From the NCBI GenBank assembly GCA_944381185.1, contig CALWKE010000002.1, positions 2,050-66,049 of the forward strand: a DNA stretch of 64,000 nucleotides, given 5' to 3'. The DNA comes from an uncultured Clostridia bacterium. GTDB lineage: Bacteria > Bacillota > Clostridia > Christensenellales > UBA1242. The notes below the pieces were generated by a model. The model was not told the origin of the DNA, searched no databases, and saw only the letters and a list, made by a program, of their open reading frames with translations. Of this stretch, positions 6,838 through 62,357 are shown in pieces (positions within the stretch are counted from its first letter, which is position 1; each line of letters starts with the position of its first letter). The translations under genes were made by a program, and so were the position numbers.

Positions 6838-8289
6838 ATGAAGAAAGTTTTAAGATATTTTTTAATTTTATCACTAATAATAGTTTTTCCGATTTTATTT
6901 ACTTCATGTGGAAATAACAAAAAACTAACAATCACTTCTAGTTTAAGTCAAATAGAAGTTTATGTTGATAACAAAAAACTTGAACTAAATAAAGAGTTAA
7001 AGGGCGATTATTCAAATAAAATATTTAAACTAAAAATAGGTAATAATGTTGACCCCAATTCAATAGAAGTTTTTGTTAATGATAGCAAAGTTGATTTAAA
7101 TGTTTTTGATGAATTTTCACTTTCAAATAATATTAATTTTGATATTGTTGACTATGCTGAATTTTCGGTGAGTAAATTATCAAAAAACACAACAATAAAA
7201 GTTGTTGCAAAAGAGCGGATTATAAATTTTAGTATTTCGTCTTTAAATGAACTTTCGCAAATTCAACAAGACTATGCGAATAATATTTTTCTTAATAAAA
7301 CATCTCTTTTAAATTTAATAACTCAAAATCAAACATATAAAACAACATTAAATGAAATTTATTCAAAGGGAATAGTTTTTGAAACTTCAAAAGTTGGAAT
7401 TTTTAATTCTGATGTGTTAAATGTAGTTTCAAGCGTAAATGAAGTTGAAAACAATATTTTAGCAATTCAAACTGAAAATTTAAAGGAATACAAGATTTCA
7501 TTATTTGATGAAACTGGTTTAAAAGTAAATTTAACTGAAAATAATTCACTTGTTTTAGATTTATCAAATCTTGAATATTCGTCTTTCAAAATAATTAATG
7601 ATAAACCCTGTAAAGCGATAACTATTGATGAAATTGGTGAAAATTCAACCGTAACTTTTGGAAGTCAATTTATTTTCAATGTTACATTTAATAAAGACTA
7701 TATGTTAAACAAACTTCAATTTGTTTTAAAAATTAACGGTGAAGAAATTTTGCCTTCAAACAAGACCGATGATTATTATAGTTATATGATTTCAAAAGAT
7801 AATGTTCCAAGTGATTTTGGAGATGGAAGCAACGCGAATGAATACATAATAACTTATGAAGGACTAGATGTTTCAAATATAAAGAGTTTGGCAGAAATAA
7901 CTTTTGATACAAATAATTTAGTTGGGTTAAAAGAAAAAGAAAATTTGTTTTATTATGAAGATGATATAAATTTCGCTTTAAAAAATGAGAATGTGATTTT
8001 TAAAATTGTTAGTTTAAATAATTTTGATGAAAATAAAAAACTTTATATAAAAATTGGCAACAAATTAAAAGATATTTCAAGTGTTCTTTTTGATGACAAT
8101 GTTTTTCCTGTTTATGAAAACGGAAAGAGAATTCTTCAAATTTCAGATAGCAACTTTGTTTTAACCATAGAATTTAAACCTACAACAAATAATGAAGATA
8201 AATTTATTGAAAGCTATAGCGAAATTTTGAATTTTGAACTAGAGATAACTGCAAATGATGATATGAATATTATTTTTTACCAAGATTAA
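6838..8289 (+). CDS. lipoprotein, unknown function
   Basis: Signal peptide plus lipobox (..PILFTSC GNN). 483 aa, N/K/I/S-rich extracytoplasmic protein. Confidence 0.7.
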   Translation: MKKVLRYFLILSLIIVFPILFTSCGNNKKLTITSSLSQIEVYVDNKKLELNKELKGDYSNKIFKLKIGNNVDPNSIEVFVNDSKVDLNVFDEFSLSNNINFDIVDYAEFSVSKLSKNTTIKVVAKERIINFSISSLNELSQIQQDYANNIFLNKTSLLNLITQNQTYKTTLNEIYSKGIVFETSKVGIFNSDVLNVVSSVNEVENNILAIQTENLKEYKISLFDETGLKVNLTENNSLVLDLSNLEYSSFKIINDKPCKAITIDEIGENSTVTFGSQFIFNVTFNKDYMLNKLQFVLKINGEEILPSNKTDDYYSYMISKDNVPSDFGDGSNANEYIITYEGLDVSNIKSLAEITFDTNNLVGLKEKENLFYYEDDINFALKNENVIFKIVSLNNFDENKKLYIKIGNKLKDISSVLFDDNVFPVYENGKRILQISDSNFVLTIEFKPTTNNEDKFIESYSEILNFELEITANDDMNIIFYQD

Positions 8290-33165: not shown

Positions 33166-34386
33166 TTAATCTTTTTGAAGAGGTGGCTCAATTTTGAGCG
33201 AACTATAAGTTTCATAAATTTGATCGATTGCATTTTCGTTAAGTGGATATAACTTCATTAGGTCGTTACTAGTTGCTTTGAATTGTCTTTTAAATTCTGG
33301 TTCAGATTCATCAAGTTGCCTTGGGGTTGAATTTAATCCTAAATCATGTTTAATATACATATATCTTGCATAAATTTTTTCAGGACTAGTTACAAACCAA
33401 CCATTAATTTTCATATATGATTTATCTGGAAACATTGTTGCCCAAAGTGCATATTTTATTTTTAGATCAGCAGTTGGGCACATTAAAATTCGTGGATTAT
33501 TTTGGATATCAGCAAGTGTTATTCCAATTTCATTTAAAATTGTTAGTTTTTTTATTACAGATTTTGGATTTTCGCTGTTTTCATCACAATCAAGACCAAG
33601 AAGGGTAGGAAACTTTTGAAGATTTTCATTGGTTAACCCCAATATTTCCTTATAAAACTTAATTTTTCTTATAACTGAAGTTTTATTTTTTTCGTTGTAT
33701 GTGTCATAGCAAAGTAGGGTAGGAAATTGTTGAAATTGTTTGTTAGTAAACCCAAGTGTATCTTTATAAAATTTGATTTTTGCTCGTATTGATGTTGGAA
33801 CGCCTTCATCAGAAGAACAATCAGATGTTAAAAGGTTTGGCAAAATTTGAAATTGCTTATTAGTAAACCCAAGGGTATCTTTATAAAATTTGATTTTAGA
33901 CCTTATTGATGTTGGGTTATTTATATCTTCTAAAATGCAATCGTAACTTAAAAGAGAAGGGGTTGTTTTTAATTGTTTGTTAGTAAAACCAAGTTCAGTT
34001 TTAAAAAATTTCACTTTGGCTTGTATTGATGTTGGGTTTTCTTCAGGGCTTGAAAATGTGTCACTTGTGATTATATTTGGTATTTTTTGAAATTGCTTTT
34101 TTGTGAAGCCAAGTTCGGTTTTATAATATTCAATTCTCTTATTTGCAGAAGATGGTTTTTCACTTAATTCTAAAACAAGCAATGTGAAATAATTTAAAAT
34201 TTGATCAAGTGAAAGGCCAACTTCGTTTTTGTAAAAATCAATTTTATCAAGCCACATTTGTTTACTTTGATTGAGTATTGCGTGAAAAGAACTTTTTTCA
34301 ATTTTGCTGTAATAATATTCGGCTTGTTCATCAGTTAATTTTAATGTGTTAATTAAAAAATCTTTTGTGATTTGAATTTTTGCCAT
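33166..34386 (-). CDS. mTERF-like helical repeat protein (about 7 tandem ~38-aa repeats)
   Basis: 406 aa. Repeats have the form PTSIRAKIKFYKDTLGFTNKQFQxxPxLLxxD, matching the mTERF motif pattern (Lys/Pro-x-hydrophobic-x-F-L-x-x-LG-F/L-S/T-x-x-x-hydrophobic-x-x-x-P-x-L-L). Confidence 0.75.
   Translation of the reverse strand: MAKIQITKDFLINTLKLTDEQAEYYYSKIEKSSFHAILNQSKQMWLDKIDFYKNEVGLSLDQILNYFTLLVLELSEKPSSANKRIEYYKTELGFTKKQFQKIPNIITSDTFSSPEENPTSIQAKVKFFKTELGFTNKQLKTTPSLLSYDCILEDINNPTSIRSKIKFYKDTLGFTNKQFQILPNLLTSDCSSDEGVPTSIRAKIKFYKDTLGFTNKQFQQFPTLLCYDTYNEKNKTSVIRKIKFYKEILGLTNENLQKFPTLLGLDCDENSENPKSVIKKLTILNEIGITLADIQNNPRILMCPTADLKIKYALWATMFPDKSYMKINGWFVTSPEKIYARYMYIKHDLGLNSTPRQLDESEPEFKRQFKATSNDLMKLYPLNENAIDQIYETYSSLKIEPPLQKD
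33560..34145 (-). repeat. intragenic tandem repeat, period about 114-117 bp, about 5 copies
   Basis: The near-identical core TTAGTAAACCCAAG(T/G)GTATCTTTATAAAATTTGATTTT recurs about 117 bp apart on the + strand (near 33743 and 33860). More diverged copies flank it. This encodes the protein repeats of the 406-aa gene. Confidence 0.75.
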
Positions 34387-54609: not shown

Positions 54610-55446
54610 ATGGCAGTTGTATCAATGAAACAATTACTAGAGGCAGGTGTTCACTTTGGTCACCCAACAAGAAAATGGAACCCAAAGATGAAAAAATACA
54701 TTTTTACTGCAAGAAATGATATTTATATTCTTGACCTCGAAAAAACCGTAACTTTGATTGATGAGGCTTATGCATTTGTTAAATCAACAGTTGAAGCTGG
54801 CGGTTCAATCCTATTTGTAGGAACAAAAAAACAAGCTAAAGATGCAGTTATTGAAGAAGCTCAAAGAGCAGGTATGTTCTATATGGGTAATCGTTGGCTT
54901 GGTGGCACACTCACAAACTTCAAAACAATTAGAAGCAGAGTAGACAGACTTGCAAAATTAAACCAAATGGAAACAACAGGTGAATTTGAACTTTTACCTA
55001 AAAAGGAAGTTTTGGGTTTAAAGGCTGAAAGGCAAAAACTTGAAGATAACCTTGGTGGAATTAAGGAAATGAGAACTCTTCCTGCAGCACTTTTTGTTGT
55101 TGACCCGGGAAAGGAATATATTGCTGTTCGTGAAGCAAAGAGTTTGGGAATTCCTATTGTTGCACTTGTAGACACTAACTGTGATCCAGATGATATTGAT
55201 TATGTTATTCCGGGTAATGATGATGCTATTCGTGCAGTTAAACTTATTGCTGGTGCTATTGCTGATGCATGTATTGAAGCAAAAGAAGGCGAAGAAGGCT
55301 TGGCAAGAATAAAAGCTGCAGAAGCCGAAGCAGAAGCTGCAAAACATCAAGACGAAAATGCTGAAACTGAAGAAAAAGCAGAAGAAGCAGTTGAAGAAAA
55401 TAAAGTAGAAGAAAAGGCAGAAGAAACTGCTGAAGAAAATAAATAA
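54610..55446 (+). CDS. rpsB: 30S ribosomal protein S2 (with acidic E/A-rich C-terminal tail)
   Basis: [27 protein letters not shown].. is canonical S2. The C-terminus has about 50 aa of E/A/K low complexity. Confidence 0.96.
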
Positions 55447-55467
55447 TAATTTTTAAGGAGAATAAAT

Positions 55468-56121
55468 ATGGCAATAACAGCAAAAGATATAACCACATTA
55501 AGAGAGCAAACCGGTGCAGGTATGCTTGATTGTAAGAATGCACTTACAGAGTGCAATGGTGACATGGAGAAGGCAGCAGACTGGCTTCGTGAAAAAGGTA
55601 TTGCAAAGGCTGCTAAAAAGCAATCTAGAATTGCAGCAGAAGGTGCAGTTTTCCTTTACAACCACATGAATGGTAAAATTGGTGTTATGCTTGAACTTAA
55701 CTGTGAAACAGACTTTGTTGCTAAAAATGAAGACTTTCAACAACTTGGTCACGACATCTGCTTGCATATTGCAGCAAATGCTCCAAAATATGTTTCAAGA
55801 GATGAAGTTGATTCAAGTGTTCTTGAAAAAGAAAGAGAAATTCTTCGTGCACAAGTAATCAACGAAGGCAAGCCAGAAGCTATGGCAGACAAGATTGTTG
55901 ATGGAAAAATTGGCAAATTCTATAAAGAAGTTTGCTTGCTTGAACAAGAGTTTGTTAAAGACCCAGATATCACAGTTGAACAACTTGTAACAAATGCAAC
56001 AGCAAAAATTGGTGAAAAGATTTCTGTTAGAAGATTTGCAAGATTTGTTATGGGTGAAGGTCTTGAAAAAAGGCAAGACAATTTGGCTGAAGAAGTTAAA
56101 AAACAAACAGAAGGAAAATAA
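55468..56121 (+). CDS. tsf: translation elongation factor Ts (short form)
   Basis: ..[24 protein letters not shown].. UBA-like N-terminus and ..[14 protein letters not shown]... 217 aa. Confidence 0.95.
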
Positions 56122-56132
56122 TAAAGATAAAG

Positions 56133-56155
56133 CACAGGCTTGCCTGTGTTTTTTT
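56133..56155 (+). terminator. rho-independent terminator after tsf
   Basis: CACAGGC-TT-GCCTGTG followed by TTTTTTT. Confidence 0.85.
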
Positions 56156-56219
56156 GTCTTAAAAATTTAATTTTAATGTTTATTTCTTTGTATAAATTGC
56201 ACGACTTTGTTTTTTTTGA

Positions 56220-56248
56220 TTGATAAATATAAAAAAATTTAGTATTAT
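56220..56248 (+). promoter_or_regulatory. sigma-A promoter of frr-uppS-cdsA-rseP
   Basis: TTGATA-17 nt-TATTAT, 57 nt upstream of the frr ATG. Confidence 0.65.
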
Positions 56249-56276
56249 ATATTAAGTTAAAGGAGAATATTTTTTT

Positions 56277-56852
56277 ATGAATACAGATAATGAAAATGTA
56301 AATCTTATTTTTATGGAATTTGAAGAAGAACTTAAAAAGGCAACAAACCATTATGAAAGTGAACTTGCAACAATTCGTGCAGGCAGGGCTAATCCTCACA
56401 TTTTAGACAAAATTTTAGTAGACTATTATGGAACACCAACACCAATTCCACACATGGCAAATGTGTCTGTTCCTGAAGCTAGGCAACTTTTGATTTCGCC
56501 TTGGGATATATCAAATGTTAAAAATATTTCAAAGGCAATACTTGCTTCAGACCTTGGGTTGACACCAACTGATGACGGAAGGGTTATTAGGCTCACATTC
56601 CCAATGCTTACTGAAGAGAGAAGAAGAGAACTTGTTAAAAGCACAAGAAAACTTGTTGAAGATGCAAAAATTGCAAGCAGAAATGCAAGGCGTGATGCTA
56701 TTGAAGCCCTTAAAAAACTTAAAAAAGATGGCGAGATAACCGAAGATGAAGAAGCATCTTATGAAAAGGAAGTTCAAAAGGTTCTTGACGAAACAACTGA
56801 AAAATTTGATAAGATGATGGACGAAAAAGAAAAAGAAATTATGCAGGTTTAG
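56277..56852 (+). CDS. frr: ribosome recycling factor
   Basis: ..ELATIRAGRANPHILD.., ..LTPTDDGRVIRLTFPMLTEERRRELVK... 191 aa. Confidence 0.95.
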   Translation: MNTDNENVNLIFMEFEEELKKATNHYESELATIRAGRANPHILDKILVDYYGTPTPIPHMANVSVPEARQLLISPWDISNVKNISKAILASDLGLTPTDDGRVIRLTFPMLTEERRRELVKSTRKLVEDAKIASRNARRDAIEALKKLKKDGEITEDEEASYEKEVQKVLDETTEKFDKMMDEKEKEIMQV

Positions 56853-56853
56853 T

Positions 56854-57051
56854 ATGCAAAATTTAAACGATCTTATTGGTTTGCCAGTTGAAGAAGCACA
56901 GCTATTATTAAACAAAAATGGTTATAAAAATATAAATTTTATAAATAATTATAAACATAATGATAAGTGTGACACTTTGCTTGTTTGTGCAGTTCGGCAA
57001 GGTGAAGATGATGTGACACTTATCTTGGGTGAATTTTATGTTGGCGTTTAA
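56854..57051 (+). CDS. small PASTA-like domain protein, unknown function
   Basis: 65 aa. The ATG lies 1 nt after the frr stop (translational coupling). ..LNDLIGLPVEEAQLLLNKNGY.. resembles the start of a PASTA-type alpha/beta module. Weak assignment. Confidence 0.45.
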   Translation: MQNLNDLIGLPVEEAQLLLNKNGYKNINFINNYKHNDKCDTLLVCAVRQGEDDVTLILGEFYVGV

Positions 57052-57061
57052 GGAGTAATAA

Positions 57062-57781
57062 ATGTTATTTAAAAGCAAGAACAAAAATAAAATTGACTAT
57101 GACAATATGCCAAAGCATATTGCTTTTATTTGTGATGGAAACAGAAGATGGGCAAAAAAGCGTGGACTTCCAACTCTTTTGGGGCACAAAGAAGGTGTTG
57201 AAGCAATAAAAAGAGTTGTTAGAAGAGCATCTGAAATAAATTTTCCAAATTTAACATTTTTCTGTTTTTCAACTGAAAATTTTGGAAGAAGCAAAGAAGA
57301 AGTTGACTATCTTTTTAACCTGTTTCGTGGTCTTAAAGATATGATTAAAAGTTTTATTAAATATGACTATCGCTTTCATCACACAGGTGACAGGTCGCTT
57401 TTATCTAAAGATATTTTAGACCTTATTGATGAGGCGGAAGAAACGACCAAAAATTGCAAAAAGGGAACAATAAATATTGCACTTGCCTATGGTGGCAGAA
57501 ATGATATTGTGAATGCTTGCAAAAGAATTGTTAGTGAAAAAGTGAAACCAGAGGATATTACTGAAGAATCTTTTAAAAAGTATTTAACCACTGGTGATAT
57601 GCCCGATGTTGACCTTTTGGTTAGAACAAGTGGCGAACAGAGGATTAGTGGTTTTATGCTCTATAACATGGCATATGCGGAACTCTATTTTGTTAAAAAA
57701 CATTGGCCTTCATTTAAGGGCGAAGACCTTGACGAGTGCATAATTGAATATCAAAAGAGAACTCGCAGGTTTGGAAAATAG
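57062..57781 (+). CDS. uppS: isoprenyl transferase (undecaprenyl-diphosphate synthase)
   Basis: ..HIAFICDGNRRWA.. and ..LLVRTSGEQRISGFML.. are cis-prenyltransferase motifs. Confidence 0.94.
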   Translation: MLFKSKNKNKIDYDNMPKHIAFICDGNRRWAKKRGLPTLLGHKEGVEAIKRVVRRASEINFPNLTFFCFSTENFGRSKEEVDYLFNLFRGLKDMIKSFIKYDYRFHHTGDRSLLSKDILDLIDEAEETTKNCKKGTINIALAYGGRNDIVNACKRIVSEKVKPEDITEESFKKYLTTGDMPDVDLLVRTSGEQRISGFMLYNMAYAELYFVKKHWPSFKGEDLDECIIEYQKRTRRFGK

Positions 57782-57794
57782 GGGGCAGATACTA

Positions 57795-58706
57795 ATGAAA
57801 AAAGTAATGTTAACCAGAATTATTACTGGGGCGTTTATTTTGCTTTTTACTGTGGCTTTTGTTTTGCTAAAACAAGTGAGCCCATTATTTTTTGATGCCT
57901 TTGTTTTAATCATCAGTGTTGGTGCAATTTATGAAATTAACAAGGCTTATAAAAATGTAGGCAAAAAAGTGAACTGGATTTTGCTTATTTTTGCAACACT
58001 TTCAATGTGTTTGATTAACATTTTTGTTGAAGATGTTTCAAGAGTTTTTATTTATGACATTTTGCTAGCAATGATTTTGTTTGTTGCATTAATGTTAATA
58101 GATATCATTGTTTTTGCAGTTAACCGCAAAAATGGAACAACTGAACCTGATGCGTCGGTTTTAAATAGCACACTTTTTGATCAAACAAAATTCACAATGA
58201 TGAGTTTTGCTTATCCAGTTTTGTTAATTTCTTCACTTTATATGCTCAATCATTTGCCATATGATATTGGCTATATGGGAATAATTGTTTCGTTTGCCGT
58301 TTCAATGCTCACTGATACTTGTGCACTTTTTGTTGGGGTGGCTTGTGGAAAACGAAAATTTGTTCCTGAAGTTTCTCCAAAGAAATCCGTTGCAGGAGTT
58401 GTTGGGGGGCTTATTGGTGGAGTAATTGGTGCAGGACTTTGTTTTGTTATATTTTATTTCACAAACTGGTTTGCTCTTGATGGTATAAGTTTGCTAAAAT
58501 CAATTTCAGCATTTGCTATTGTTGGTGTGATTGGTTCGTTTATCAATCAACTTGGTGACCTTGTTTCTTCCGCTCTTAAACGAAAGGTTGGGCTTAAAGA
58601 TTTTGCACATATTTTCCCCGAACATGGTGGGTTTATGGACAGGGTTGACGGACTTATGTTTGTTTCAACTTTTGTTTATGTAATTTTTAGTTTACTTTTA
58701 GTATAA
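57795..58706 (+). CDS. cdsA: phosphatidate cytidylyltransferase
   Basis: C-terminal signature SALKRKVGLKDFAHIFPEHGGFMDRVDG. ATG is residue 18 of the track ORF. Confidence 0.92.
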   Translation: MKKVMLTRIITGAFILLFTVAFVLLKQVSPLFFDAFVLIISVGAIYEINKAYKNVGKKVNWILLIFATLSMCLINIFVEDVSRVFIYDILLAMILFVALMLIDIIVFAVNRKNGTTEPDASVLNSTLFDQTKFTMMSFAYPVLLISSLYMLNHLPYDIGYMGIIVSFAVSMLTDTCALFVGVACGKRKFVPEVSPKKSVAGVVGGLIGGVIGAGLCFVIFYFTNWFALDGISLLKSISAFAIVGVIGSFINQLGDLVSSALKRKVGLKDFAHIFPEHGGFMDRVDGLMFVSTFVYVIFSLLLV

Positions 58707-58743
58707 AAAATCAATTTTAACATAGAATTTATTAGGAGATAAT

Positions 58744-60084
58744 ATGACCTTTTTATATATTTTGTTAGCACTTGTTATTCTGCTTGTAATGATAACAGTC
58801 CACGAGTTTGGGCATTATTGTGCTGGCAAAATATTAGGTTTTAAAATAAATGAATTTGCAATAGGATTTGGTCCAAAACTTTATTCTAGAACTAAAAAAG
58901 ACGGAGAAGTTTTTTCAGTTCGTGCACTACCTCTTGGTGGTTTTTGTGCTTTTGAAGGTGAAGATGAAGACGGAAAGTCTAATCCGCAGGCAATGAACAA
59001 TCAACCTGCGTGGAAAAGACTTATTGTTCTTTTGTCGGGTGTTGGCTTTAACTTTTTGTTTGGTGTTTTAACTGCTGCAATTTACTTGATGGTTTCAGGT
59101 TATGCTACTGTTATGGTGACTCAAACGATAAATCAACAAGAAATTCAAACCATGGGGCTTCAAAAAAATGATATTGTTGTTGCTGTTGACGGCAAAACAG
59201 TTGAAGCTTATCGTAACTTTTCAAGTTTAATTGCCGATTACAAAGAAGGTGAAGAATTTGTTGTAACCGTTAATCGTGGTGGAGAAATTGTTTATATAAC
59301 TACTAAAAAACAAAAATTTGATGCTTTTTATTATGTTTCATATCAAGATTATTTAAAAGGGCAACTTTACACAAAAACAGGTGAAGATGTTTATGCTCAA
59401 ATAACAGATGAAGAGTATAGCAAACTTTTAGATGATATTGTTAATCAAGACACTTCAAGTGAAGCTATTGATGCGGTTGGCAAGGGCAGTGCACTAACTG
59501 CTGTTTTAGAAGGATATTACTATAAATTAAATGATGAATACAAACCAGCAAATAGTAATGAAATTATAACTCTTTTGGTTTCAGGAAATGCTGACCAAAA
59601 TATACCAGCATCAATTTCTTATGCAACAGCGGGTGTTAGCATGGGAATAATTCAACAAAATGTTGGTGAAAGTTACAACTTTTTTGAAGCCGTGCTTAAA
59701 GCTTGGCCATTCTGTTTTTATCTTTGTGGGTTAATATTAAGTGCTCTTGGTGGGCTTTTCACGGGCTCGACCGCAGTTTCGGAACTTGGTGGAACAATAA
59801 CTGCAATTTCACAAATGGCAGAAATCAGTTCTTACGGAATTAGTTATTTCTTGCTTCTACTTCCGTTAATAGCAATGAACTTGGCGGTGTTTAACATCTT
59901 GCCAATACCAGCACTTGATGGTGCACGGGCTGTGTTTGTTTTAATTGAAATAATATTTAGAAAGCCTGTTAACCGAACAGTTGAAGCATGGATTCACACA
60001 GTAGGTTTGTTTGTGATTTTGGGGTTTGTTATATTTTTAGATGTCTACCACTTTTTTATAGCGTCCTATTTCTTGCGTTTGTGA
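58744..60084 (+). CDS. rseP: RIP metalloprotease RseP (site-2 protease, M50 family)
   Basis: HEFGHY zinc motif in TM1, a PDZ-like middle region and the NILPIPALDG motif near the C-terminus. Confidence 0.92.
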   Translation: MTFLYILLALVILLVMITVHEFGHYCAGKILGFKINEFAIGFGPKLYSRTKKDGEVFSVRALPLGGFCAFEGEDEDGKSNPQAMNNQPAWKRLIVLLSGVGFNFLFGVLTAAIYLMVSGYATVMVTQTINQQEIQTMGLQKNDIVVAVDGKTVEAYRNFSSLIADYKEGEEFVVTVNRGGEIVYITTKKQKFDAFYYVSYQDYLKGQLYTKTGEDVYAQITDEEYSKLLDDIVNQDTSSEAIDAVGKGSALTAVLEGYYYKLNDEYKPANSNEIITLLVSGNADQNIPASISYATAGVSMGIIQQNVGESYNFFEAVLKAWPFCFYLCGLILSALGGLFTGSTAVSELGGTITAISQMAEISSYGISYFLLLLPLIAMNLAVFNILPIPALDGARAVFVLIEIIFRKPVNRTVEAWIHTVGLFVILGFVIFLDVYHFFIASYFLRL

Positions 60085-60110
60085 TTATTTTATTGTATAA
60101 TCAATTTGCT

Positions 60111-61730
60111 ATGGAAAATGAAAAACTTATTGAAGAATTGAATGCAAGAACAAATAATGAATATAAATTTATGCTTAAATCTGCACTCTTAAAACAGAAT
60201 GCAGATTTTTGTGTGATTGAAATTTTTTATCGTGACGGCATTATGCTTTCAAATGAAAAAAAACAAAAATGTAGCGAAATTTTAAAATCTATTTTGCCTA
60301 AAAAGTTTAAATATGAATTCAAATTCATAAAAAACTTTGTGAGTGAAGAGAGAATTGAAGTTGATTTTAAAAATTTGATGAATAAGAGTTTTGCTTCAAT
60401 TTCGTATAAACTTAAAAGTGTAAATAAAAATGAAAATAAATTTCAAATTGATGCAACAATTGATACACTTTCTTTTGATCATGCAGTTCAAAAAAACCTT
60501 TCAAAACTTATTGAAAATGAGTTAAAAAACAGGTACGAAGATTATGAATTTGAATGTAAATTTCAAGAAGGTGAAGTTTTTAAAGAAAATGAAAAAGAGT
60601 TATTAAAAAATAACTTTAAAGAAGAAGAGGTTGATATTTTTGCAAAACGAAAAATTGAAGTCACTGAAAAAGAGGTTTTGCTTGGAGAAGAAATAGAATG
60701 CCCTGCAAGTTACATTAAAGATAAAAAAGAACCTGAAGAGAATGTTGTTTTTTGTGGAAAAATTAAGGATTTAAAAGATATTGTTATAAAAAGAAAACCA
60801 AAACAAAACAATGAAGAAAAAGAAAATAACAAAGAGTCTACTCAAAATTCTGAAAACGAAGAAGTGCAATCAAAGTATAGTCGAAAGATGTTTAAGTGGA
60901 TTCTTGAAGGGTTTACAGGTTCTGTTTCGTGCGTGTTTTTTTCAAACAAAGAAAATCAACCAGTTTTTGAAAAAATAGCAGATAATATGTCAATTATTGT
61001 TCGTGGAAAACTTGAAAATGATAAATATAGTGGTGACCTTTCACTTGTTGTTAAAGATTTGAGTTTATGCAAACTTCCAGAAAAATTTGAAGAAGTTATT
61101 ATATATAAAAAAGAGAAACCTTTTTATGAATTTGTTGAGCCTGAAAACATTGTGACATATAAGCAAGATGACCTTTTGTCGTTTATGCAAGTTGAAGAAG
61201 TTCCGCCACTGCTTGCAGGAAAAACCTATGTTTGCTTTGACTTTGAAACCACAGGTCTTCATTTTGAAGCGGGAGATAAAATTATTGAAATTGGTGCAGT
61301 TAAAATTGAAAATGGTAAAATAACTCAAAGATTTATGAGTTATGTTGACCCTGAAAAGCCAATTCCACCCAAATCTTCTGCAATTAGTGGTATTGTTGAT
61401 AGTGATGTTGCAGGGGCTCCAAAAGATTATGAAATTTTGCAAGACTTTTATAAATTTACTCGTGGGGCAATTCTCATTGGTTACAATAACATAAACTTTG
61501 ATAATGTGTTTTTGATTGGCCAAGGCAAAGAATGTAGATGGGATTTTGCATCAAATGAAACAGACGATGTTTATAGGTATGCACAAAAGTATGTTCATGG
61601 TGTAAAAAATTACAGACTTGGAACAATTGCAGCGGCTCTTGGAGTTACTCTTGATAATGCACACAGGGCAGTATTTGATGCTCTTGCAACCGCTGAAGTG
61701 TTTATTAAGATTGCAAAAATGATAAAATAG
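60111..61730 (+). CDS. PolC-like N-terminal domain + OB fold + DEDDh 3'-5' exonuclease, without PHP or polymerase core
   Basis: 539 aa from ATG 60111. The OB-like segment ..VVFCGKIKDLKDIV..FKWILEGFTGSVSCVFFSNKE..IIVRGKLENDKYSGDLSLVV.. is followed by Exo I VCFDFETTGL, Exo II GYNNINFD and Exo III AHRAVFDALATAE. The stop follows directly. Confidence 0.8.
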   Translation: MENEKLIEELNARTNNEYKFMLKSALLKQNADFCVIEIFYRDGIMLSNEKKQKCSEILKSILPKKFKYEFKFIKNFVSEERIEVDFKNLMNKSFASISYKLKSVNKNENKFQIDATIDTLSFDHAVQKNLSKLIENELKNRYEDYEFECKFQEGEVFKENEKELLKNNFKEEEVDIFAKRKIEVTEKEVLLGEEIECPASYIKDKKEPEENVVFCGKIKDLKDIVIKRKPKQNNEEKENNKESTQNSENEEVQSKYSRKMFKWILEGFTGSVSCVFFSNKENQPVFEKIADNMSIIVRGKLENDKYSGDLSLVVKDLSLCKLPEKFEEVIIYKKEKPFYEFVEPENIVTYKQDDLLSFMQVEEVPPLLAGKTYVCFDFETTGLHFEAGDKIIEIGAVKIENGKITQRFMSYVDPEKPIPPKSSAISGIVDSDVAGAPKDYEILQDFYKFTRGAILIGYNNINFDNVFLIGQGKECRWDFASNETDDVYRYAQKYVHGVKNYRLGTIAAALGVTLDNAHRAVFDALATAEVFIKIAKMIK

Positions 61731-61792: not shown

Positions 61793-61821
61793 TTGCAATT
61801 AATCAGTTTTTAGTATATAAT
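61793..61821 (+). promoter_or_regulatory. consensus sigma-A promoter of rimP-nusA operon
   Basis: TTGCAA-17 nt-TATAAT, 106 nt upstream of the rimP ATG. Confidence 0.75.
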
Positions 61822-61846
61822 TAATTTATGAAATGGCTTGATTTTG

Positions 61847-61876
61847 GGAGTGGTGAAAACCACTCCTAAAATTTTG
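61847..61876 (+). promoter_or_regulatory. leader terminator/attenuator hairpin upstream of rimP-nusA
   Basis: GGAGTGGT-GAAA-ACCACTCC is a perfect 8-bp stem with a GNRA tetraloop, followed by the interrupted U-tract TAAAATTTTGTAAAAAAATTTT. Located between the promoter and the rimP SD. Confidence 0.55.
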
Positions 61877-61898
61877 TAAAAAAATTTTGGAGTGTGTT

Positions 61899-62357
61899 AT
61901 GTCTAAAATATCAGAAGAAGTTGAAAAATTTTTAACCCCAATAGTTGAAAGCCTTGGTTGTGAAATTGTTGAAGTTGAGTTTGCTCATAAACACGATGGT
62001 GACAATTTGACTGTGTTTATTGACAAAAAGGGTGGAGTTACCATTGATGATTGTGAAAAGGTGCACAAGGCCATTGATGAGCCACTTGATGAACTTAATC
62101 CAACTAACGACAAACCATACACACTTAATGTTTCAAGCCCGGGAATTGATAGACCAATTATTACAGATAAAGATTTCACAAGAAATTTGGGCGAACTTTT
62201 AGAGGTTAGACTTTTTCAAGCCATTCAAAAGAAAAAAATATATATTGGAAATCTTATGGAATTCAATTCAGAAACAATTAAACTTGATACGGGCGATGAA
62301 ATTGTTTCAATTGACCGAAAGTTGATTTCAAAGGCAACAAAATATATTGAAATTTAG
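61899..62357 (+). CDS. rimP: ribosome maturation factor RimP
   Basis: ..VEKFLTPIVESLGCEIVEVEF.., ..LTVFIDKKGGVTIDDCEKV.. and ..YTLNVSSPGIDRPI.. are RimP blocks. Confidence 0.93.
   Translation: MSKISEEVEKFLTPIVESLGCEIVEVEFAHKHDGDNLTVFIDKKGGVTIDDCEKVHKAIDEPLDELNPTNDKPYTLNVSSPGIDRPIITDKDFTRNLGELLEVRLFQAIQKKKIYIGNLMEFNSETIKLDTGDEIVSIDRKLISKATKYIEI

What the first reader, a model, noticed from the sequence alone, without database searches (positions are those of the whole stretch)
60111..61730. PolC-derived N-terminal/OB/exonuclease protein at the polC position, lacking PHP and polymerase domains
In Bacillus-type genomes the order is cdsA-(dxr)-rseP-(proS)-polC-rimP-nusA. Here the slot between rseP and rimP holds a 539-aa ORF. 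Its last ~170 residues are a complete epsilon-type DEDDh exonuclease (VCFDFETTGL / GYNNINFD / AHRAVFDALATAE). Its middle part resembles the PolC OB fold, and its N-terminus resembles the PolC N-terminal domain. The ORF stops right after Exo III, and no PHP, palm, fingers or thumb sequence follows: rimP begins 168 nt later behind its own promoter. In real PolC the exonuclease is nested inside the PHP domain, so this is not a simple 3' truncation. It could be a stand-alone proofreading or accessory subunit derived from PolC, or a remodelled remnant with the replicative polymerase encoded elsewhere. The ATG has no SD. A TATAAT box lies only about 11 nt upstream, inside the rseP 3' end, so the mRNA may be leaderless or nearly so.
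Basis: partly seen in the sequence, partly recalled or inferred. Interest (0 to 1): 0.6.

Follow-up and report, generated by a model that had tools for sequence, protein, structure and literature searches.

The report
PolC-derived exonuclease without a polymerase
In the genome slot where related bacteria keep their main replicative polymerase gene polC, this uncultured chicken-gut Clostridia bacterium and many relatives carry a conserved gene for only PolC's N-terminal, DNA-binding and proofreading-exonuclease parts plus a likely sliding-clamp hook, which suggests a stand-alone proofreader whose polymerase partner is still unknown.

Summary
Window 60111-61730 (+) is a real 539-aa gene between rseP and rimP.

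Profile-profile comparison with 25 full-length PolC proteins aligns it colinearly to PolC residues 1-623:
- N-terminal domain: E 8e-8
- OB fold: E 1.7e-16
- DEDDh exonuclease: E 4.7e-74

The PHP half that precedes the exonuclease in PolC is replaced by an unrelated linker of about 45 residues. Nothing follows the exonuclease.

It is not an artefact. The DNA is identical in independent assemblies. At least 285 homologues of about 500-620 aa keep the whole architecture and all DEDDh catalytic residues. 45 GTDB species representatives carry the short form in the polC slot, while Lachnospiraceae, Ruminococcus and Geosporobacter have a 1354-1557-aa PolC there.

New here: the linker holds a conserved Qxx[LM][FLM] motif (352-QDDLLSF-358). 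It resembles the C-terminal QLSLFDF clamp-binding tail of the PolCs retrieved here.

Best reading: a clamp-tethered, PolC-derived 3'-5' proofreading exonuclease that acts in trans, probably with a DnaE-type polymerase. This function is inferred. I could not establish whether a PolC polymerase exists elsewhere in these genomes.

I found no description of the family in the papers searched, so I class it as a new variant of a known kind.

The parts
60111..61730 (+). Gene for the 539-aa polymerase-less PolC homologue (stop codon TAG 61728-61730)
   Evidence: ORF list and sequence. More than 120 full-length homologues at 54-98% identity. DNA is identical in five independent assemblies.
60111..60590 (+). 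N-terminal domain, residues 1-160: two tandem KH-like (alpha-beta-beta-alpha-alpha-beta) subdomains without a GxxG loop. Homologous to the PolC N-terminal domain.
   Evidence: hhalign against the PolC N-terminal domain: 94.5%, E 8e-8, 156 colinear columns. AF2 pLDDT 87.7. Top PDB fold matches are the tandem KH domains of archaeal NusA.
60651..61076 (+). PolC-type OB fold, residues about 181-322
   Evidence: Pfam PF01336 at 255-318. hhalign against the PolC OB: 98.7%, E 1.7e-16. Foldseek matches PolC 9qpc_A (398 columns) and 3f2b_A (130 columns).
60795..60872 (+). Variable, low-complexity K/E/N/Q-rich loop inserted in the OB fold (residues 229-254)
   Evidence: pLDDT below 50. Length varies in close relatives. 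No counterpart in PolC, where the whole segment is gapped.
61077..61214 (+). Family-specific linker (residues 323-368) that replaces the PHP N-terminal half of PolC. Y339 and P344 are nearly invariant.
   Evidence: No similarity to PolC PHP-N (hhalign 0.1%). Y339 in 281/285 and P344 in 280/285 homologues.
61164..61184 (+). Candidate beta-clamp-binding motif 352-QDDLLSF-358
   Evidence: Q352 in 280/285. Position 355 is L/F/M/I/V in 284/285. Qxx[LMIVF][FLMYW] occurs in 253/285. The full-length PolCs fetched here end in ..NQLSLFDF. The model has low confidence here.
61215..61727 (+). DEDDh (DnaQ-type) 3'-5' exonuclease domain, residues 369-539. Exo I: D377 and E379 (61239-61247). Exo II: D464 (61500-61502). 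Exo III: H518 and D523 (61662-61679).
   Evidence: Pfam RNase_T E 2.6e-33. TIGR00573 scores 99.9 bits against a cut-off of 71.5. PDB PolC and DnaQ matches. Catalytic residues are invariant.
60073..60101 (+). Promoter-like element TTGCGT-17 nt-TATAAT, ending 9 nt before the ATG. There is no Shine-Dalgarno site.
   Evidence: Read from the sequence. The same TTGCGT-17-TATAAT occurs in L001 with 6 nt to the ATG. TTGACA-17-TAnAAT-6 nt-ATG occurs in L011, L014, L016, L019, L020 and L046.
60081..60084 (+). GTGA overlap: alternative in-frame GTG start overlapping the rseP TGA stop
   Evidence: Sequence. P0001 (549 aa) uses this start. The family consensus begins at the ATG instead.
58744..60084 (+). 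rseP (M50 site-2 protease), upstream neighbour that defines the slot
   Evidence: ORF. Pfam for the orthologue in L001.
61899..62357 (+). rimP, downstream neighbour, followed by nusA-ylxR. It has its own promoter (61793-61821) and a conserved leader hairpin (61840-61873).

Best explanation
This is a functional, conserved gene for a polymerase-less homologue of the N-terminal half of PolC. It has a tandem KH-like N-terminal domain, a PolC-type OB fold and an active DEDDh 3'-5' exonuclease. PolC's PHP half upstream of the exonuclease has been replaced by a short linker that carries a clamp-binding-type motif. Everything downstream of the exonuclease is absent.

Shown:
- the homology and the architecture;
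- conservation of the catalytic residues;
- occupation of the polC slot in a large set of uncultured gut Clostridia.

Inferred mechanism: the protein docks on the beta sliding clamp through 352-QDDLLSF-358. It may also dock on the clamp loader through the KH-like N-terminal domain, the role proposed for that domain in PolC. The OB fold would hold single-stranded DNA while the exonuclease removes mismatched 3' ends in trans for a separately encoded C-family polymerase, most simply DnaE1. Functionally it would be an epsilon-like proofreading subunit of PolC ancestry.

The gene probably arose in situ from polC. It appears to be expressed from a promoter at the rseP end that gives a leaderless or nearly leaderless mRNA.
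For: Homology:
- hhalign of the family against PolC aligns residues 5-536 to PolC 1-623, E 2.5e-73.
- Foldseek's top hit is PolC 9qpc_A, 398 columns, E 2.5e-18.
- The N-terminal domain folds as tandem KH-like repeats. That matches the published prediction for the PolC N-terminal domain and its proposed clamp-loader role (PMC3919608).

Conservation:
- DEDDh residues are invariant in 285 homologues, and the linker motif is conserved.
- A profile search found 565 50%-identity clusters with E <= 1e-30. The best 150 are all 562 aa or shorter.

Synteny:
- uppS-cdsA-rseP(/ispG)-X-rimP-nusA holds in 38 of 45 short-form GTDB loci. Full-length PolC sits in the same slot in other Clostridia.
- Those PolCs carry the clamp motif at their extreme C-terminus (Table S1 of PMC3919608). 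Truncation would have removed it.

Background from the literature:
- Some Clostridia have DnaE1 only.
- Clostridial DnaE1 keeps a putative epsilon-binding surface (PMC3919608).

Expression:
- The gene is transcribed at low level in chicken-gut metatranscriptome contigs.
- A -35/-10 pair lies 6-9 nt before the start codon in several lineages.
Against: - No polymerase partner was identified. I could not search the rest of any genome that carries the gene, so DnaE1-only status is unproven.
- The protein has no C-terminal tail like the polymerase-binding segment of E. coli epsilon. How it would contact a polymerase is unknown.
- The clamp motif is inferred from sequence pattern alone.
- The window shows strong gene-strand bias (about 84% of large ORFs on +) and purine-rich skew. 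Published work associates these features with PolC-containing genomes (PMC3814617 abstract; PMC5054071, own recollection of that paper, not read here).
- The exonuclease tree does not resolve whether short forms derive from PolC. Short forms are monophyletic in 15% of bootstraps and the PolC clade in 80%, with a distant root.
- Databases label some members '3'-5' exoribonuclease'.
Confidence: 0.55

Rival explanations
1. Accessory paralogue or trans-subunit of a PolC encoded elsewhere. The genome still has a PolC-type polymerase, either full-length or the Exo-less NTD-OB-PHP-Pol3-HhH form known from some Clostridia and Negativicutes. The short protein supplies or supplements DnaQ-type proofreading for it.
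For: Exo-less PolCs make up 6% of PolC sequences and, apart from one extra PolC copy in Thermotogae, are confined to Clostridia and Negativicutes (PMC3919608). The window shows strong strand bias and purine skew, which published work links to PolC genomes. The rest of the genome could not be searched.
Against: The short form sits exactly in the ancestral polC slot in 45 species, so a second polC elsewhere needs an extra duplication or translocation. No C-family polymerase lies within +/-10 kb of any short-form locus. A literal split PolC is unlikely, because the N-terminal PHP half needed to complete a PHP fold is absent from the short form. No Negativicutes record appeared among the 45 short-form loci, although only the best 80 of 576 matches were kept.
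Confidence: 0.27
2. RNA-processing enzyme. On this view it is an OB-fold 3'-5' exoribonuclease acting on rRNA, tRNA or mRNA, co-located with the rimP-nusA-infB-rbfA-truB ribosome-biogenesis cluster, as some database names suggest.
For: NCBI names such as '3'-5' exoribonuclease'. The DEDDh superfamily includes RNases, with weak Pfam hits to Rv2179c-like. The N-terminal fold resembles NusA KH domains. The neighbouring genes act on RNA.
Against: All three domains are specifically and colinearly PolC-like. Exo identity to PolC is about 41%, close to the 47% seen within the family. The KH-like repeats lack the GxxG RNA-binding loop (read from the sequence). The location is where polC itself lies in other Clostridia, so the neighbourhood says nothing about RNA. 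The gene has its own promoter-like element, rimP has another, and they are separated by 168 nt. The conserved clamp-type motif has no role in RNA processing.
Confidence: 0.1
3. Non-functional remnant of polC, or an assembly or annotation artefact.
For: The gene looks like a truncated PolC. Some public gene calls differ (519 or 549 aa).
Against: Homologues keep full-length conservation down to 26% identity, with invariant catalytic residues in 285 sequences. The DNA is identical in independent assemblies. The gene is present in 45 GTDB species and is transcribed. The divergent gene calls come from read-through of TGA or use of an upstream GTG, not from sequence differences.
Confidence: 0.02

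Closest known systems
[quoted passage not shown]
   Same: Same order of N-terminal domain, OB fold and DnaQ-type exonuclease, with significant profile-profile similarity in each. Same chromosomal slot (rseP/ispG - X - rimP-nusA). Clamp-binding-type QxxLF motif.
   Different: No PHP domain: neither the half before nor the half after the exonuclease is present. No palm, thumb, fingers or (HhH)2. About 540 aa instead of about 1400-1550 aa. The clamp-type motif lies in an internal linker rather than at the C-terminus. An extra low-complexity loop sits in the OB fold.
E. coli DNA polymerase III epsilon subunit (DnaQ)
   Same: Separate polypeptide with a DEDDh exonuclease. As I recall, epsilon has a clamp-binding motif (QTSMAF) next to its exonuclease domain; that point is from my own knowledge and was not tested here. 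Proposed to proofread in trans for a DnaE-type polymerase.
   Different: About 30% identity in the exonuclease. The motif lies before rather than after the exonuclease. There is no C-terminal polymerase-binding tail. It carries additional KH-like and OB domains of PolC origin. Its partner is unknown.
Exo-less PolC of some Clostridia and Negativicutes (NTD-OB-PHP-Pol3-HhH; Timinskas et al. 2014, PMC3919608)
   Same: Shows that the PolC exonuclease and polymerase modules can be uncoupled in this part of the bacterial tree.
   Different: Reciprocal outcome. Those proteins keep the polymerase and lose the exonuclease. This one keeps the exonuclease and loses the polymerase. Both keep the N-terminal domain and OB fold, so they are not two halves of one split gene.
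DnaE1 with an N-terminally fused DnaQ exonuclease (EXO-PHP-Pol3 architecture, PMC3919608 Table S2)
   Same: Another independent way of pairing a DnaQ-type exonuclease with a DnaE-type polymerase.
   Different: That one is a covalent fusion to the polymerase. Here the exonuclease is a free-standing protein with PolC accessory domains.
Firmicute DinG-type proteins with an N-terminal DnaQ-like exonuclease domain (e.g. S. aureus DinG, PDB 8zef)
   Same: The exonuclease domain is similar (E 2e-16).
   Different: No helicase domain here. The N-terminal domain and OB fold are PolC-specific.

Membership tests
PolC-type DNA polymerase III (NCBIfam NF001688 / TIGR01405) | Whole-protein score at or above the curated equivalog cut-off | tested here: not met
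   145.1 bits against a cut-off of 873 (NF001688). 123.6 bits against 1043 (TIGR01405).
PolC-type DNA polymerase III | [quoted passage not shown] | tested here: met
   hhalign 94.5%, E 8e-8, colinear 1-162 to 1-170, with controls at 0.1-0.2%. AF2 topology is two alpha-beta-beta-alpha-alpha-beta repeats. Top PDB matches are the tandem KH domains of archaeal NusA.
PolC-type DNA polymerase III | [quoted passage not shown] | tested here: met
   PF01336 E 4.8e-7. hhalign 98.7%, E 1.7e-16. Foldseek match to 3f2b_A.
PolC-type DNA polymerase III | PHP domain split by the inserted exonuclease | tested here: not met
   The linker at 323-368 has no similarity to PolC PHP-N (0.1%) and no HxH motif. The ORF ends 8 residues after the last Pfam RNase_T position.
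PolC-type DNA polymerase III | Pol3 core (palm, thumb, fingers) and (HhH)2 | tested here: not met
   No tblastn match of PolC C-terminal halves or of E. coli DnaE in the window or in any short-form locus.
PolC-type DNA polymerase III | Clamp-binding motif at the extreme C-terminus | tested here: not met
   The C-terminus is ...KIAKMIK. A QxxL[FLM]-type motif is found internally instead, at 352-358.
DnaQ / epsilon-family DEDDh exonuclease (TIGR00573, Pfam RNase_T) | Exo I, II and III motifs with the DEDDh residues | tested here: met
   D377, E379, D464, H518 and D523 are present and invariant in 284-285 of 285 homologues. TIGR00573 scores 99.9 bits against a cut-off of 71.5. PF00929 E 2.6e-33.
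Pol III epsilon proofreading subunit (functional class) | Physical association with a C-family polymerase and stimulation of its fidelity | not testable with these tools
   No partner polymerase sequence from the same genome could be obtained. No complex prediction was possible.
Pol III epsilon proofreading subunit (functional class) | Beta-clamp-binding motif adjacent to the exonuclease domain | tested here: inconclusive
   A conserved Qxx[LMIVF][FLMYW] occurs in 253/285 at an aligned position 13 residues before the exonuclease. It resembles the PolC C-terminal QLSLFDF. Binding was not tested.
Pol III epsilon proofreading subunit (E. coli type) | C-terminal segment that binds the alpha-subunit PHP domain | tested here: not met
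   The protein ends right after the Exo III helix.

The most novel reading that the evidence does not exclude
A large radiation of uncultured gut Clostridia has lost the PolC polymerase altogether and replicates with DnaE1 alone. Record labels include Christensenella and Christensenellaceae MAGs, Ca. Scatosoma, Ca. Coproplasma, Ca. Caccovivens, and this chicken-gut lineage. These bacteria kept PolC's N-terminal domain, OB fold and exonuclease as a free-standing, clamp-tethered proofreading subunit that acquired its own internal clamp-binding motif. That would be a natural conversion of a PolC+DnaE1 replisome into a DnaE1+epsilon-like replisome. These commensals would also lack the target of PolC-directed antibiotics.
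Probability: 0.4. Interest if true: 0.8.

Novelty: new variant of a known kind. Interest (0 to 1): 0.64.

Why it matters
Current surveys of bacterial replicases classify genomes as DnaE1-only, PolC+DnaE1 or PolC+DnaE3. They note as open questions how clostridial DnaE1 and PolC share the work and what proofreads for DnaE1 (PMC3919608, PMC12926913). Those surveys start from polymerase domains, so a polymerase-less PolC homologue may be easy to miss; the passages and supplementary tables I read do not mention one.

A conserved family in the polC slot would give a concrete candidate for a new type of trans-acting proofreader. It comprises at least 285 sequences in hand and hundreds of 50%-identity clusters. 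It would also provide an evolutionary intermediate between the two-polymerase and the one-polymerase-plus-epsilon replisomes.

There is a practical side as well. PolC inhibitors such as ibezapolstat are being developed on the premise that low-G+C Firmicutes depend on PolC (PMC11963600). Gut lineages that carry only this remnant might be intrinsically insensitive.

All of this is testable with standard biochemistry: exonuclease assays, clamp pull-downs and fidelity assays.

Tried and rejected
1. Finding the polymerase partner.
- tblastn with PolC C-terminal halves and with E. coli DnaE found nothing against the window or against 50+ short-form loci with +/-10 kb flanks.
- Pfam of large ORFs next to rearranged short-form loci gave surface-repeat, EAL/GGDEF, MutS/MutL, MiaB and IspG proteins, and no polymerase.
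- Extending beyond the window start showed only that the scaffold begins 3.4 kb upstream.
- Pfam of 20 large window ORFs found no replisome gene.
- No available tool could search the rest of a carrier genome.

2. Literature.
- Neither polymerase survey mentions such a protein in the passages I read.
- The per-genome table of PMC12926913 is truncated in the held copy. It lists 9 DnaE1-only Firmicutes; the six whose names appeared in the passages fetched are not from the taxa named here. Christensenella minuta falls in the missing part.
- Searches combining PolC with Christensenella or TANB77, and the ibezapolstat PolC paper, gave nothing relevant.

3. Cultured carriers. A second homologue search from a 'Christensenella sp.' MAG returned only MAG proteins. 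One was named 'PolC-type DNA polymerase III [Ca. Caccovivens sp.]' although it is only 509 aa.

4. Transcription start. Metatranscriptome contigs cover the gene at low depth but leave 60058-60386 uncovered in the two clear RNA runs, so no 5' end could be read.

5. Direction of evolution. A neighbour-joining tree of the exonuclease domain, rooted on E. coli DnaQ, did not resolve it. An earlier run of that script was lost.

6. Rfam. No family matched between 59950 and 61950.

7. 'Split PolC' idea. Rejected because the PHP N-terminal half is absent from the short form.

8. The 519-aa and 482-aa gene calls. I considered and rejected these as evidence of a frameshift. The DNA is identical, and the gene caller read through TGA.
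Full report
**Observation**

Window 60111-61730 (+) is an intact ORF of 539 codons. It lies between rseP (58744-60084) and rimP (ATG 61899), which is followed by nusA and ylxR.

- Pfam finds a complete RNase_T/DEDDh exonuclease at residues 374-531 (E 2.6e-33) and an OB fold at 255-318 (E 4.8e-7).
- The best NCBIfam model is PolC (NF001688). It matches only model positions about 420-588 and scores 145 bits against a cut-off of 873.
- Among solved structures the best sequence matches are PolC chains 9qpc and 2p1j, through the exonuclease. A weak second stretch matches the PolC OB fold.
TATAAT (60096-60101) lies in the 26-nt spacer after the rseP stop codon, 9 nt before the ATG. It does not lie inside rseP.

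**It is a real gene and a large family**

- A homologue search returned more than 120 clusters at 54-98% identity. All are 526-618 aa and cover the whole query.
- A profile search of 1.84 billion representative proteins gave 565 clusters with E <= 1e-30. The best 150 (E <= 7e-67) are all 562 aa or shorter, and none has PolC length.
- The species of the window is common in gut metagenomes. Its exact NusA occurs in 147 index blocks, and DNA runs labelled chicken gut metagenome hold the window.
- Five independent assemblies have identical DNA across the rseP/ORF junction.
- Some public gene calls (rseP 482 aa, ORF 519 aa) read through the TGA stop. This is a gene-caller choice, not a sequence difference. 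Relatives end RseP at the same residue with TAG or TAA.

**Homology to PolC, domain by domain**

From the single genome-contig scan I obtained 80 loci.

- 45 loci carry a short form, with stop-to-stop ORF spans of 496-646 codons.
- 33 loci carry full-length or contig-truncated PolC. The 25 used for the PolC alignment span 1354-1557 codons stop to stop.
- Both forms occupy the same neighbourhood. In 38 of the 45 short-form loci rimP-nusA follows directly, and where flanks allow uppS-cdsA-rseP (or ispG) precedes.

I aligned 25 full-length PolCs and compared that profile with the family profile.

| Comparison | Result |
|---|---|
| Whole protein | family 5-536 colinear with PolC 1-623, E 2.5e-73 |
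| N-terminal domain | 94.5% probability, E 8e-8, 156 colinear columns |
| N-terminal domain against two other PolC regions (controls) | 0.1-0.2% |
| OB fold | 98.7%, E 1.7e-16 |
| Exonuclease | 100%, E 4.7e-74 |
| Linker 323-368 against PolC's PHP N-terminal half | nothing (0.1%) |

Structure prediction agrees.

- AlphaFold models are confident (pLDDT 81 for the whole protein, 88 for the N-terminal domain alone).
- The whole model's best PDB match is PolC 9qpc_A over 398 columns (E 2.5e-18).
- The N-terminal domain is two alpha-beta-beta-alpha-alpha-beta repeats. Its best PDB matches are the tandem KH domains of archaeal NusA.
- This is the fold published as a prediction for the PolC N-terminal domain, which that paper proposes binds the clamp loader (PMC3919608).
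- The repeats lack a GxxG loop, so they are more likely a protein-binding module than a nucleic-acid-binding one. This last point is my inference.

**What is missing and what is new**

- There is no PHP, palm, thumb, fingers or (HhH)2 in the window or within 10 kb of any short-form gene.
- In PolC the exonuclease is nested in the PHP domain. The short form therefore differs from PolC by two changes: loss of everything after the exonuclease, and replacement of the roughly 100-residue PHP half before it by a roughly 45-residue linker. A literal 'split PolC' is unlikely for that reason.
- The linker is not junk. Y339 (281/285), P344 (280/285) and Q352 (280/285) are nearly invariant.
- Q352 heads a Qxx[LMIVF][FLMYW] motif present in 253 of 285 members. 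Examples are QVDLF, QDSMF and QLSLF; here it is 352-QDDLLSF-358.
- Nearly all of the 25 full-length PolCs end in a C-terminal QLSLFDF-type tail, typically ...PESNQLSLFDF. Timinskas et al. list this position as the PolC clamp-binding motif.
- The short form, having lost that tail, carries a look-alike motif in a low-confidence, presumably flexible segment 13 residues before the exonuclease.
- The five DEDDh residues are invariant in 284-285 of 285 members.
- Close relatives also have a variable K/E/N-rich loop inside the OB fold (residues 229-254 here). It has no counterpart in the PolC alignment, where the whole segment is gapped.

**Most likely mechanism**

Shown: an actively conserved protein made of PolC's N-terminal domain, OB fold and proofreading exonuclease, sitting where polC sits in other Clostridia.

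Inferred: it is recruited to primer termini through the sliding clamp (motif 352-358), and possibly to the clamp loader through the N-terminal domain. It would excise mismatched 3' ends for a polymerase encoded elsewhere.

The simplest partner is DnaE1.

- Every bacterium surveyed has a DnaE-type enzyme.
- Some Clostridia are DnaE1-only.
- Clostridial DnaE1 retains a putative epsilon-binding surface and a clamp motif (PMC3919608).

On this view the lineage reduced polC in situ and kept its proofreader as an epsilon-like subunit.

I could not test the key premise. No tool route let me search the remainder of any carrier genome, and the held copy of the only per-genome polymerase table is truncated. 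The main rival therefore stays open: a PolC (full or Exo-less) elsewhere, with this protein as an accessory.

Other points:
- The window's strong gene-strand bias and purine skew are features that published work links to PolC genomes. They weigh slightly towards that rival or reflect history.
- An RNA-processing role, suggested by some database names, is disfavoured by the specific three-domain colinearity with PolC and by the clamp-type motif.
- A dead remnant is excluded by the conservation.

**Evolutionary direction**

- Exonuclease identity averages 47% within the family, 41% between family and clostridial PolC, and 30% to E. coli DnaQ.
- A neighbour-joining tree recovers the sampled PolCs as one clade (80% bootstrap). 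It does not recover the short forms as one clade (15%), and the root is unreliable.
- Derivation from PolC is favoured by parsimony, since PolC occupies the same slot in several other clostridial families. The tree does not demonstrate it.

**Expression signals**

- The ATG has no Shine-Dalgarno site.
- TTGCGT-17 nt-TATAAT ends 9 nt before the ATG. The 62%-identical relative L001 has the same pair ending 6 nt before its ATG.
- Six more distant lineages (L011, L014, L016, L019, L020, L046) have consensus TTGACA-17-TAnAAT ending exactly 6 nt before the start codon. The -35 box sits in the last rseP codons.
- This is the geometry of a leaderless mRNA. In this window the leader would be about 3 nt.
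- Overall 9 of 42 distinct upstream regions have a -10-like box 4-10 nt upstream, against 3.9 +/- 1.8 in shuffles. Other lineages, preceded by ispG, lack it.
- Termination-reinitiation after rseP is an alternative. So is the GTG that overlaps the rseP stop.
- Metatranscriptome contigs show that the gene is transcribed. They do not cover the 5' end.

**Distribution**

- Record titles for short-form loci name uncultured Clostridia, Christensenella sp. and Christensenellaceae MAGs, Ca. Scatosoma, Ca. Coproplasma and Ca. Caccovivens. They come from human, chicken, rabbit, ruminant and mouse guts.
- No cultured organism appeared among the hits.

**Comparison with what is known, and verdict**

- The protein fails the membership tests for PolC: no PHP, no polymerase core, and a sub-threshold equivalog score.
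- It passes those for a DnaQ-type DEDDh exonuclease.
- It resembles E. coli epsilon in being a separate exonuclease with a clamp-type motif beside the catalytic domain. It differs in ancestry, in the extra PolC domains and in lacking epsilon's polymerase-binding tail.
- It is the reciprocal of the Exo-less PolCs already described in Clostridia and Negativicutes.
- I found no description of this architecture in the papers searched.
- I rate it a new variant of a known kind. The interest is moderately high and hinges on the whole-genome polymerase census that I could not run.

Noticed in passing
window 61793-61898 (also L001 11790-11880, L004, L007): The rimP leader has a strongly conserved promoter (ACTTGCAA-17-TATAAT) and a conserved hairpin at 61840-61873 (GGGAGTGG...CCACTCC followed by UAAAAUUUUG). 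Folding energy is -23.6 kcal/mol with z -5.6. The stem and the T-rich tail are invariant in relatives whose proteins are only 42-62% identical. L007 has a changed loop that extends the stem. No Rfam family matches. It looks like an attenuator of the rimP-nusA-infB operon, possibly for NusA autoregulation.
   Followed up: partly
window 60082-60190; loci L088-L093: Public ENA gene calls on identical DNA give RseP 482 aa and the exonuclease gene 519 aa, because the caller read through TGA as if it were not a stop codon. Relatives end RseP at the same residue with TAG or TAA, so the standard bacterial code (table 11) is correct here.
   Followed up: yes
window 54610-60084: The cluster rpsB-tsf-frr-uppS-cdsA-rseP lacks pyrH (usually between tsf and frr). 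It also lacks dxr, ispG and proS, which usually sit before polC; ispG is present in that position in several Christensenella-type loci. A small ORF of 65-68 aa with no Pfam hit (56854-57051) is conserved between frr and uppS in relatives.
   Followed up: no
window 33166-34386 (-): A 406-aa ORF gives a weak whole-protein match to the mTERF family (PF02536, E 1.3e-6, 28 bits against a cut-off of 23.1, with no single stretch passing). That family is unusual in bacteria.
   Followed up: no
whole window: About 84% of large ORFs are on the + strand. GC skew is positive in every 4-kb bin (+0.04 to +0.27) and AT skew is mostly positive. This purine-rich leading-strand pattern is usually associated with PolC-containing Firmicutes, which is notable for a genome whose polC slot lacks a polymerase. 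G+C is 26-36%.
   Followed up: no
window 60795-60872 (residues 229-254): A low-complexity K/E/N/Q-rich loop of very variable length is inserted in a hairpin of the OB fold in the close relatives. It has no counterpart in PolC, where the whole segment is gapped. The model predicts it to be disordered.
   Followed up: partly
P0318: NCBI names a 509-aa member of the family 'PolC-type DNA polymerase III [Candidatus Caccovivens sp.]', while other members are named '3'-5' exoribonuclease' or 'ribonuclease H-like domain-containing protein'. Automatic annotation of this family is inconsistent and could make genome surveys miscount PolC.
   Followed up: no
window 6838-8289 (+): A 483-aa ORF has no Pfam match at E <= 1e-5. 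It is called as a gene in the independent scaffold L094.
   Followed up: no
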